DNA of 64,000 bases from Escherichia coli O157:H7 (GTDB lineage: Bacteria > Pseudomonadota > Gammaproteobacteria > Enterobacterales > Enterobacteriaceae): the NCBI RefSeq assembly GCF_013167455.1, contig NZ_CP038328.1. The stretch is one strand, 5' to 3'. The position numbers and the translations under genes were made by a program. The notes below the pieces were generated by a model. It ran no database searches. It saw only the letters and a list, made by a program, of their open reading frames with translations, and was not told where the DNA came from. Below are positions 5,344 through 7,117 of this stretch, piece after piece (within the stretch, counting starts at the first letter, position 1; each line of letters begins with the position of its first letter).

Positions 5344-6180
5344 ATGCTCGCAGATATCAGATATTGGGAAAACGATGCCACAAATAAACGTTATGCTATT
5401 GCCCATTTTAATGTATGGAATGCAGAAATGTTGATGGGCGTTATCGACGCAGCCGAAGAAGCGAAATCACCGGTTATTATTTCTTTTGGCACAGGTTTTG
5501 TCGGCAACACCTCATTTGAAGATTTCTCTCACATGATGGTATCTATGGCACAAAAAGCAACGGTGCCGGTAATAACTCATTGGGATCATGGTCGGAGTAT
5601 GGAGATTATTCATAACGCCTGGACTCATGGTATGAATTCATTAATGCGTGATGCTTCCGCATTTGATTTCGAAGAAAATATTCGTTTAACCAAAGAGGCT
5701 GTTGATTTCTTCCATCCGCTGGGTATTCCGGTAGAGGCGGAATTAGGGCATGTCGGTAATGAAACCGTTTATGAGGAAGCGCTGGCGGGCTATCACTATA
5801 CCGATCCTGACCAGGCGGCTGAATTTGTTGAACGTACGGGCTGTGACTCATTGGCTGTCGCCATCGGCAACCAGCATGGGGTTTATACGTCAGAGCCACA
5901 ATTGAACTTTGAGGTCGTCAAACGCGTACGCGATGCAGTGTCTGTTCCGCTGGTTTTGCATGGCGCATCGGGGATCAGTGATGCCGACATTAAAACTGCA
6001 ATTTCGTTGGGTATCGCGAAAATCAACATCCATACGGAGCTCTGTCAGGCCGCAATGGTCGCAGTGAAAGAAAACCAGGATCAGCCTTTCCTGCATTTAG
6101 AACGTGAAGTACGTAAAGCTGTAAAAGAACGGGCATTGGAAAAAATTAAACTGTTCGGTTCTGATGGCAAAGCGGAATAA
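5344..6180 (+). CDS. ydjI: class II (metal-dependent) ketose-phosphate aldolase
   Basis: 278-aa ORF resembling the tagatose/fructose-bisphosphate aldolase class II family. Confidence 0.85.
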   Translation: MLADIRYWENDATNKRYAIAHFNVWNAEMLMGVIDAAEEAKSPVIISFGTGFVGNTSFEDFSHMMVSMAQKATVPVITHWDHGRSMEIIHNAWTHGMNSLMRDASAFDFEENIRLTKEAVDFFHPLGIPVEAELGHVGNETVYEEALAGYHYTDPDQAAEFVERTGCDSLAVAIGNQHGVYTSEPQLNFEVVKRVRDAVSVPLVLHGASGISDADIKTAISLGIAKINIHTELCQAAMVAVKENQDQPFLHLEREVRKAVKERALEKIKLFGSDGKAE

Positions 6181-7117
6181 TGATATGGATAATCTCGACG
6201 TTATTTGTATAGGTGCCGCTATTGTTGATATTCCATTGCAACCGGTCAGTAAAAATATCTTTGATGTGGATTCTTATCCTCTTGAAAGAATCGCAATGAC
6301 CACCGGGGGTGATGCAATAAATGAAGCAACAATTATTTCTCGTCTGGGCCATTGTACAGCATTAATGAGCCGTATTGGTAAAGATGCCGCAGGGCAGTTT
6401 ATTCTCGACCATTGCCGCAAAGAGAATATTGATATTCAAAGCCTGAAGCAGGACGTCAACATAGATACCTCTATTAATGTTGGACTGGTGACGGAGGATG
6501 GCGAGCGGACGTTTGTCACAAACCGTAACGGCAGTCTGTGGAAATTGAATATTGACGATGTTGATTTTGCGCGGTTTTCCCAGGCGAAATTATTATCACT
6601 GGCCAGTATTTTCAACAGTCCACTATTGGATGGTAAAGCGCTAACAGAAATTTTTACGCAAGCTAAAGCCCGGCAGATGAATATCTGTGCCGATATGATT
6701 AAACCGCGGTTGAATGAAACGCTGGATGATATTTGCGAAGCATTGAGTTATGTCAATTATGCCGAGGCAAAATTACTCACCGGGAAAGAGACACTGGATG
6801 AAATTGCTGACAGCTTTCTTGCGTGCGGCGTAAAAACGGTGGTGATTAAAACGGGTAAAGACGGCTGCTTTATCAAGCGTGGTGACATGACGATGAAGGT
6901 GCCGGCGGTCGCAGGAATAACCGCCATCGACACCATTGGCGCGGGCGATAACTTTGCTTCAGGTTTTATTGCGGCACTGTTAGAAGGAAAAAATCTGCGT
7001 GAATGCGCACGCTTTGCCAATGCAACGGCGGCTATCTCGGTTCTAAGCGTCGGTGCCACCACCGGCGTAAAAAACAGAAAGCTGGTCGAACAATTGCTGG
7101 AAGAATACGAAGGATAA
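6164..7117 (+). CDS. ydjH: pfkB/ribokinase-family sugar kinase
   Basis: 317-aa ORF overlapping the ydjI stop; C-terminal GAGDNFASGF anion-hole motif of ribokinase-like kinases; an alternative ATG at 6185 would give 310 aa. Confidence 0.8.
   Translation: MAKRNNDMDNLDVICIGAAIVDIPLQPVSKNIFDVDSYPLERIAMTTGGDAINEATIISRLGHCTALMSRIGKDAAGQFILDHCRKENIDIQSLKQDVNIDTSINVGLVTEDGERTFVTNRNGSLWKLNIDDVDFARFSQAKLLSLASIFNSPLLDGKALTEIFTQAKARQMNICADMIKPRLNETLDDICEALSYVNYAEAKLLTGKETLDEIADSFLACGVKTVVIKTGKDGCFIKRGDMTMKVPAVAGITAIDTIGAGDNFASGFIAALLEGKNLRECARFANATAAISVLSVGATTGVKNRKLVEQLLEEYEG

What the first reader, a model, noticed from the sequence alone, without database searches (positions are those of the whole stretch)
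6164..6187. Ambiguous start and 17-bp overlap at the ydjI/ydjH junction
The first ATG of ydjH (6164) lies inside the end of ydjI with no ribosome-binding site; a second ATG at 6185 follows the ydjI stop with a weak GGA. Either start implies translational coupling of aldolase and kinase.
Basis: seen in the sequence. Interest (0 to 1): 0.2.

Follow-up and report, generated by a model that had tools for sequence, protein, structure and literature searches.

The report
Ordinary ydjI–ydjH operon gene junction
The sugar-kinase gene ydjH starts at the second ATG, four bases after the stop codon of the aldolase gene ydjI, exactly as public annotation already has it; the earlier overlapping ATG is a by-product of a silent codon choice in ydjI, so this is an ordinary tight operon junction.

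Summary
An in-frame ATG at 6164 lies 17 nt inside ydjI (stop TAA 6178-6180), and a second in-frame ATG sits at 6185, 4 nt after that stop. The ambiguity resolves in favour of 6185. RefSeq starts ydjH there in O157-like, K-12 and CFT073 genomes. The PfkB domain begins at residue 5 of that form. All eight homologue N-termini examined align on this Met. The 6164 ATG exists only because E. coli uses GAT rather than GAC for an Asp codon in ydjI. Sister Escherichia species, Intestinirhabdus and Symbiopectobacterium have GAC and no upstream ATG, but keep a start 2-4 nt after the stop. In Lachnospiraceae the start is 2 nt after the stop or overlaps it by 1 nt. Published cell-free start-site profiling of K-12, whose junction sequence is identical, found a weak peak at the annotated start in 5 of 5 replicates and lists no start at -21. 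Translational coupling is plausible given the +4 nt spacing and the weak Shine-Dalgarno, but it is not shown, and weak independent initiation occurs in vitro. The junction is ordinary and already annotated. One side observation: this O157-type ydjH carries a 15-bp in-frame deletion just before the conserved NxxE motif.

The parts
5344..6180 (+). ydjI, a class II ketose-bisphosphate aldolase of 278 aa, with stop TAA at 6178-6180
   Evidence: ORF list and translation. RefSeq CDS in an identical genome. Pfam PF01116, 298 bits.
6164..6166 (+). Upstream in-frame ATG, not the start. It is formed by the last two bases of ydjI codon GAT (Asp) plus the first G of the next codon, GGC.
   Evidence: Sequence. 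It reads GAC, so no ATG, in Escherichia sp. E1V33, E. whittamii, Intestinirhabdus and Symbiopectobacterium. SD energy is -2.4 kcal/mol, the median of random ATGs. No TIS at -21 in INRI-seq Table S3.
6169..6177 (+). Degenerate Shine-Dalgarno-like AAAGCGGAA inside the last ydjI codons (Lys-Ala-Glu)
   Evidence: Scores -3.5 kcal/mol here. Relatives with Lys codon AAG have AAGGCGGA, scoring -6.9 to -7.1 kcal/mol, 6-8 nt before the conserved start.
6181..6184 (+). 4-nt intercistronic spacer TGAT (TAAT in CFT073-type strains)
6180..6212 (+). Out-of-frame ATG overlapping the ydjI stop (TAATG), opening a 10-codon ORF (MIWIISTLFV*). Probably incidental.
   Evidence: The ATG is absent in the CFT073-type junction carried by 1025 genomes.
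6185..7117 (+). ydjH, a PfkB-family sugar kinase of 310 aa in this strain (315 aa in K-12). The start codon is ATG 6185.
   Evidence: RefSeq CDS start in three lineages. The PDB 3h49/3in1 alignment begins at this Met. The Pfam PfkB match runs from residue 5. The N-terminal alignment of 9 homologues has this Met invariant. INRI-seq found a peak at the K-12 annotated TIS in 5/5 replicates.
6754..6755 (+). Site of a 15-bp in-frame deletion relative to K-12 and CFT073 (YVDYLFPNFAEA becomes YVNYAEA)
   Evidence: Pairwise alignment. HMMER alignment to 3h49. The exact junction is found in 326 E. coli genomes only.

Best explanation
ydjH is translated from ATG 6185 (protein MDNLDVICIG...), 4 nt downstream of the ydjI stop codon. 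There is no gene overlap.

The ATG at 6164 is a species-specific accident. E. coli spells an Asp codon near the end of ydjI as GAT rather than GAC, and GAT followed by GGC creates an out-of-frame ATG that happens to be in the ydjH frame.

The ribosome-binding information for ydjH is a degenerate Shine-Dalgarno embedded in the last codons of ydjI (AAAGCGGAA). In E. coli it is weakened by a synonymous AAG-to-AAA Lys codon.

Shown: the position of the start, by annotation, domain boundary, comparative sequence and in vitro start-site profiling.

Inferred: in the cell, most initiation at 6185 comes from ribosomes that have just terminated at TAA 6178-6180 or have unwound the region (termination-reinitiation or facilitated binding), on top of a weak capacity for de novo initiation. 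That would tie kinase output to aldolase output.
For: (1) RefSeq/PGAP places the ydjH CDS at the 6185 equivalent in an identical O157-like genome, in K-12 and in CFT073. It places the ydjI end at the 6180 equivalent.

(2) Cross-species junctions: four other Enterobacterales have GAC, not GAT, and so have no upstream ATG. All keep an ATG 2-4 nt after the stop. Blautia has TTG 2 nt after the stop, and Eubacterium has a TAATG -1 overlap. Their upstream ATGs are out of frame.

(3) Between E. coli and E. whittamii/E1V33, the three changes in the last ydjI codons are all synonymous in the ydjI frame. They alter 4 of the 7 codons of the hypothetical extension (read).

(4) The nine homologue N-termini align on M8 of the long form, and MAKRNND has no counterpart. 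The Pfam PfkB match starts at residue 5 of the short form.

(5) The SD-like AAGGCGGA in relatives sits 6-8 nt before the conserved start, at -6.9 to -7.1 kcal/mol. It is wrongly placed for 6164.

(6) INRI-seq (PMC9825163) used a K-12 synthetic ydjH transcript with 30 nt of upstream sequence, so the -21 ATG was included. It gave a peak at the annotated TIS 1856928 in 5/5 replicates (8.1-9.0 CPM). Table S3 lists no TIS at -21. K-12 is identical to the window across 6135-6195.

(7) For coupling: a +4 nt distance lies in the -8..+6 nt class, which holds 707 of 2987 E. coli unidirectional pairs. Engineered +2 nt distances kept 30-95% of reinitiation (PMC10666635). The SD is weak, and the stand-alone TIS signal is low compared with ydjI (125-267 CPM) and ydjG (72-95 CPM).
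Against: There is no in vivo start-site or N-terminal protein evidence. Ribo-RET signal for the whole ydj cluster is 0, and ydjH is absent from the N-terminomics supplements searched.

The upstream ATG is nearly fixed within E. coli: at least 4139 of about 4243 genomes carry one of two junction haplotypes that both have it. Minor use of it in E. coli cannot be excluded.

In the INRI-seq transcript the -21 ATG had only 9 native bases plus GGG upstream, so that context is artificial.

Coupling itself was not tested. The in vitro peak shows that the start can work without upstream translation. After normalising to transcript abundance, ydjH (about 0.075) is no weaker than ydjK (about 0.08) or ydjF (about 0.045).

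No significant or conserved RNA structure occludes the start.
Confidence: 0.88

Rival explanations
1. ATG 6164 is the true and only start. ydjH would then overlap ydjI by 17 nt, encode a 317-aa protein (MAKRNNDMDN...), and the public annotation would be wrong.
For: It is the first ATG of the open frame. It is present in essentially all E. coli that carry the cluster.
Against: It is absent (GAC) in sister Escherichia species, Intestinirhabdus and Symbiopectobacterium, and out of frame in Lachnospiraceae. The extension shows no protein-level conservation. Its SD is no better than a random ATG. No INRI-seq TIS is listed at -21, whereas the annotated TIS is detected. The literature read reports overlaps longer than 8 nt as rare for H. 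volcanii, and for E. coli names only -4, -1 and -8 nt as the common overlaps.
Confidence: 0.03
2. Both ATGs are used in E. coli. That would give a major 310/315-aa form and a minor E. coli-specific form extended by 7 residues.
For: Both ATGs are in frame with no stop between them. The upstream ATG is near-fixed in E. coli. Dual starts are known in E. coli in general (PMC9825163 text).
Against: There is no SD for 6164 and no in vitro peak passing the thresholds. The site lies inside ydjI, which is translated in another frame. The extension is not conserved beyond the species. Such second ATGs are expected by chance: 12 of 47 long ORFs in this window have one.
Confidence: 0.05
3. ydjH starts at 6185 but is initiated purely de novo through its own weak SD. 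The tight spacing would only reflect genome compaction, with no functional translational coupling to ydjI.
For: The annotated TIS gives a reproducible peak on an isolated transcript without upstream translation. Relatives carry a respectable SD (AAGGCGGA) at proper spacing. After abundance normalisation the signal is similar to ydjK and ydjF.
Against: The E. coli SD is at background strength (-3.5 kcal/mol). The stop-start distance has been kept at -1 to +4 nt across two phyla. Experiments show that such distances support efficient reinitiation in E. coli.
Confidence: 0.3

Closest known systems
E. coli K-12 ydjI (b1773) / ydjH (b1772) junction as annotated in RefSeq and EcoCyc-type coordinates
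   Same: The sequence is identical over 6135-6195. ydjI has the same stop, ydjH has the same ATG, and the gap is 4 nt (K-12 coordinates 1856928 and 1857769).
   Different: The window's ydjH allele (O157:H7-type) is 310 aa rather than 315 aa. It carries a 15-bp in-frame deletion and five amino-acid substitutions.
Termination-reinitiation (TeRe) coupled unidirectional gene pairs (Huber et al. 2019, 2023; PMC6728339, PMC10666635)
   Same: The genes are co-directional in one operon. The stop-start distance lies within the -8..+6 nt class, and the SD sits inside the 3' end of the upstream gene.
   Different: This is not the canonical -4 (ATGA) or -1 (TAATG) overlap. The only TAATG here (6178-6182) is out of frame with ydjH. 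Dependence on upstream translation has not been tested. The products are two pathway enzymes, and no heteromeric complex is known.
ydjI-ydjH junctions in gut Lachnospiraceae MAGs (Eubacterium sp. L009, Blautia faecavium L008)
   Same: Gene order is the same (ydjJ-like 347 aa, ydjI-like 278 aa, kinase, ydjG-like 327 aa). The kinase is 68% identical, and the aldolase has the same C-terminal ...DGKAE* ending that carries the SD-like GGAAAGGCGGAA.
   Different: The start is TTG 2 nt after the stop (Blautia), or ATG overlapping the stop by 1 nt (Eubacterium). The SD is stronger (-7.1 kcal/mol), and there is no in-frame upstream ATG.

Membership tests
PfkB carbohydrate kinase family (YdjH) | Match to Pfam PF00294 above the gathering score, over the full domain | tested here: met
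   223.5 bits against a cutoff of 25.8, covering residues 5-295 of the 6185-start protein and profile positions 3-299 of 302.
PfkB carbohydrate kinase family (YdjH) | Intact strand plus NxxE motif (VDYLFPNFAEA in K-12) | tested here: inconclusive
   The window allele reads YVNYAEA. An N-x-x-E remains, but the five preceding residues are deleted. The Pfam score is 25 bits lower than for K-12. Activity was not tested.
YdjH orthologue (E. coli b1772) | Near-identity to the K-12 protein / PDB 3h49, and ydjJ-I-H-G synteny | tested here: met
   E = 6.5e-195 to 3h49/3in1. RefSeq names and gene order agree.
Class II aldolase (YdjI) | Match to Pfam PF01116 over the full length | tested here: met
   298.2 bits, residues 10-276. 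RefSeq names it 'ketose-bisphosphate aldolase'.
Overlapping gene pair (17-nt overlap) | The downstream start codon lies inside the upstream CDS and is the one actually used | tested here: not met
   The start supported by annotation, conservation and INRI-seq is 6185, downstream of the stop.
Termination-reinitiation coupled gene pair | Co-directional genes with a stop-start distance of about -8 to +6 nt | tested here: met
   The distance is +4 nt. The class definition comes from PMC10666635.
Termination-reinitiation coupled gene pair | Both genes lie on one transcript, with no promoter or terminator between them | tested here: met
   A 4-nt spacer leaves no room for either. Consensus scans found no excess of promoter-like sites (8 against 12.1 expected), and only weak matches near the junction. 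This rests on a consensus scan only; no transcript data were examined.
Termination-reinitiation coupled gene pair | Translation of the downstream gene depends on translation of the upstream gene reaching its stop | not testable with these tools
   This needs reporter fusions with premature stops in ydjI. The in vitro data show only that weak independent initiation is possible.

The most novel reading that the evidence does not exclude
The E. coli-specific ATG at 6164 is used at a low level. It would either produce a YdjH isoform extended by 7 residues or act as a decoy. Together with the out-of-frame TAATG start at 6180, it would then tune how many terminating ribosomes reinitiate at 6185, and hence the aldolase:kinase ratio.
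Probability: 0.04. Interest if true: 0.15.

Novelty: already known. Interest (0 to 1): 0.05.

Why it matters
It matters very little. The result confirms that current annotation has the right ydjH start (MDNLD) and that the apparent 17-bp overlap comes from taking the first ATG of the open frame. The practical value is limited to cloning and annotation hygiene, and to one clean experimental handle: GAT to GAC at 6163-6165 removes the upstream ATG without changing YdjI, as nature has already done in sister species. The side observation may be of more biological interest than the junction itself. The O157:H7-type ydjH allele lacks five residues next to the NxxE motif, which may mean this lineage has an impaired kinase in a still poorly understood sugar-acid pathway.

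Tried and rejected
- RNA structure hiding the start: the local folds are not better than shuffles (z = -1.26 and +0.36). The 8-sequence consensus fold is negligible (-3.0 kcal/mol). Rejected as a conserved coupling mechanism.
- Internal promoter or terminator at the junction: nothing above chance.
- Literature on the ydjH start: full-text searches found nothing direct. The two Raushel-lab papers on YdjH and YdjI are not held and are known here only through PMC9602453. The Ribo-RET preprint has no held supplements. The TRAINSPOTTER N-terminomics supplements do not contain ydjH.
- Relaxed selection on the O157 ydjH allele: pN/pS against K-12 is 0.19, compared with 0.02 for ydjI but 0.24 for partial ydjG. 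The counts are too small to conclude anything.
- GAC variant within E. coli: no exact hits on the main haplotype, so the within-species data cannot discriminate between the starts.
- The large protein-database and metagenome scans were deliberately not run, because the eight cross-species junctions already settle the question.

Full report
**What is there.** The window is E. coli. It is 100% identical to strain CDC#03-98 and 99.8% identical to O157:H7 strains over 5900-6500. It carries the ydj cluster on the + strand:
- ydjK, 2884-4263
- ydjJ, 4280-5323
- ydjI, 5344-6180
- an open frame, 6164-7117 (ydjH)
- ydjG, 7127-8107
- ydjF, 8244-9002

Pfam confirms a class II aldolase (PF01116, 298 bits) followed by a PfkB kinase (PF00294, 223 bits).

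ydjI ends ...TCT GAT GGC AAA GCG GAA TAA, with the stop at 6178-6180. An ATG at 6164-6166 spans the GAT|GGC codon boundary and is in the ydjH frame, which gives the 17-nt overlap. A second in-frame ATG lies at 6185, 4 nt (TGAT) after the stop. GGA at 6174-6176 is 8 nt upstream of it.

**Is it more than chance?** No. ATG occurs at 1.87% of + strand positions. An in-frame ATG is therefore expected 12% of the time within 7 codons, and 31% of the time within the 20-codon open stretch upstream of 6185. In this same window, 12 of 47 long ORFs have a second in-frame ATG within ten codons of the first.

**Which ATG is the start?** Five independent lines agree on 6185.

1. *Annotation.* RefSeq places the ydjH CDS at the 6185 equivalent, and the ydjI end at the 6180 equivalent, in an identical O157-like genome, in K-12 MG1655 and in CFT073.

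2. *Domain boundary.* The PfkB match starts at residue 5 of the MDNLD form. The crystallised K-12 protein (3h49/3in1) aligns from that Met onward.

3. *Other species.* A scan of one genome per species recovered eight informative junctions.
   - Escherichia sp. E1V33, E. whittamii, Intestinirhabdus alba and Symbiopectobacterium all spell the ydjI Asp codon GAC. They therefore have no upstream ATG, yet all keep an ATG 2-4 nt after the aldolase stop.
   - In gut Lachnospiraceae, which have the same ydjJ-I-H-G order and a kinase 68% identical, the kinase starts at TTG 2 nt after the stop (Blautia) or at ATG overlapping the stop by one base (Eubacterium, TAATG). Their upstream ATGs are out of frame.
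   - Between E. coli and E. whittamii/E1V33, the three substitutions in the last ydjI codons (TCT>TCA, GAT>GAC, AAA>AAG) are all silent in ydjI. They would change 4 of the 7 codons of the hypothetical extension (read).
   - An alignment of nine homologue N-termini has the 6185 Met invariant, and nothing opposite MAKRNND.

4. *Ribosome-binding signal.* Relatives with Lys codon AAG carry AAGGCGGA (-6.9 to -7.1 kcal/mol against the 16S tail) 6-8 nt before the conserved start. In E. coli the synonymous AAA weakens it to -3.5 kcal/mol. This element is positioned for 6185, not for 6164. The best pairing for 6164 is -2.4 kcal/mol, the median of all ATGs in the window.

5. *Experiment in the literature.* INRI-seq is cell-free retapamulin start-site profiling of a synthetic K-12 transcriptome. 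Each transcript carries 30 nt upstream and 153 nt of CDS, so the -21 ATG was present on the ydjH transcript. The study detected the annotated ydjH start (1856928, the MDNLD start; a 948-nt gene) in 5 of 5 replicates at 8.1-9.0 CPM. The only alternative site listed for ydjH is an out-of-frame ATG at +136, seen in one replicate and below their threshold. Nothing is listed at -21 (PMC9825163). K-12 is identical to the window across 6135-6195. In vivo Ribo-RET shows zero signal for the whole cluster, so there is no in vivo evidence either way.

**Nothing better lies downstream.** The next in-frame candidates are TTG at codon 18, GTG at codon 28 and ATG at codon 38. All lie inside the PfkB domain.

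**Within E. coli.** The upstream ATG is nearly fixed. 3114 genomes carry the window's exact 61-nt junction, and 1025 carry the CFT073-type junction (spacer TAAT instead of TGAT). Both haplotypes have the ATG, and no genome has the GAC variant on the main haplotype. This reflects low within-species diversity and does not argue for function.

**How it probably works.**
- *Shown:* the start position, the 4-nt gap, the weak SD, and weak but reproducible stand-alone initiation in vitro.
- *Inferred:* ribosomes finishing ydjI at TAA 6178-6180 reinitiate at, or clear the way for initiation at, ATG 6185.

The inference rests on three points. First, the distance falls within the -8..+6 nt class, which includes 707 of 2987 E. 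coli unidirectional pairs. Second, engineered +2 nt gaps retained 30-95% of reinitiation, whereas +38 nt lost 80-100% (PMC10666635). Third, stop-start adjacency of -1 to +4 nt is conserved across two phyla.

Against a strict dependence on coupling, the isolated transcript initiates on its own. After normalising to transcript abundance, ydjH (about 0.075) is comparable to ydjK and ydjF. I found no significant or conserved RNA structure masking the start, and no promoter or terminator signal at the junction above chance. I put about 0.9 on the start being 6185 and about 0.6 on coupling making a material contribution.

**Comparison with what is known.** This is the already annotated K-12 b1773/b1772 junction. 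It belongs to the common class of tightly spaced operon genes. It is not a member of the overlapping-gene class, because the overlap depends on a start that the evidence rejects. Nothing here is novel.

**Side observations.**
- The window's ydjH is 310 aa against 315 aa in K-12 and CFT073. A 15-bp in-frame deletion at 6754/6755 turns YVDYLFPNFAEA into YVNYAEA, removing the residues just before the PfkB NxxE motif while leaving an N-x-x-E.
- The exact deletion junction is found in only 326 of about 4285 E. coli genomes with the gene, led by O157:H7 strains. The allele also has R57C, S92N, I166N and C215S. pN/pS is not decisively raised.
- The ydjH/ydjG junction has a TAATG (7115-7119). Its out-of-frame ATG at 7117 is identical in K-12 and gave a stronger INRI-seq peak (up to 145 CPM, 2 replicates) than the annotated ydjG start at 7127.

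Noticed in passing
window 6754-6755 (within ydjH 6185-7117): There is a 15-bp in-frame deletion relative to K-12 and CFT073 (YVDYLFPNFAEA becomes YVNYAEA). It removes five residues just before the PfkB NxxE motif. The allele also carries R57C, S92N, I166N and C215S. The exact junction occurs in only 326 of about 4285 E. coli genomes, with O157:H7 strains at the top of the list. RefSeq still calls it an intact 310-aa sugar kinase. This may be a lineage-specific impaired kinase.
   Followed up: partly
window 7115-7245 (ydjH/ydjG junction): The ydjH stop overlaps an out-of-frame ATG (TAATG, with ATG at 7117, 10 nt before the annotated ydjG ATG at 7127). This ATG opens a 42-codon ORF across the 5' end of ydjG. 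The sequence is identical in K-12. There, published INRI-seq lists this -10 ATG as a detected alternative start with a peak of up to 145 CPM, higher than the annotated ydjG start (72-95 CPM).
   Followed up: partly
window 6178-6212: The ydjI stop also forms TAATG, with an ATG at 6180 that is out of frame with ydjH. It opens a 10-codon ORF (MIWIISTLFV*). This ATG is absent from the CFT073-type junction (TAATAAT) carried by 1025 genomes, so it is probably incidental.
   Followed up: partly
L008 and L009 (Blautia faecavium and Eubacterium sp. MAGs), e.g. L009 574-4467: Gut Lachnospiraceae carry the same ydjJ-ydjI-ydjH-ydjG order, with identical ydjJ and ydjI lengths (347 and 278 aa) and a kinase 68% identical to that of E. 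coli. This suggests horizontal exchange of the cluster between gut Firmicutes and Enterobacterales.
   Followed up: no
L013 (Bacillus sanguinis, 230-bp contig) and L014 (Halalkalibacter oceani, 393-bp contig): Very short contigs in two Bacillota assemblies encode YdjH fragments that are 98-99% identical to E. coli YdjH at the amino-acid level (tblastn). They look like E. coli contamination of those assemblies.
   Followed up: no
window 8177-8205 (+): This is the best sigma-70-like match in the region (TTGAAA, 17-nt spacer, TG-GATAAT; 10 of 12). It lies in the ydjG-ydjF intergenic gap, upstream of the DeoR-type regulator gene ydjF (GTG at 8244). That fits ydjF having its own promoter.
   Followed up: no
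window 40483-40525 (-): This is the only Rfam hit above the gathering score in the window: ES036 (CssrF) sRNA, 42.9 bits.
   Followed up: no
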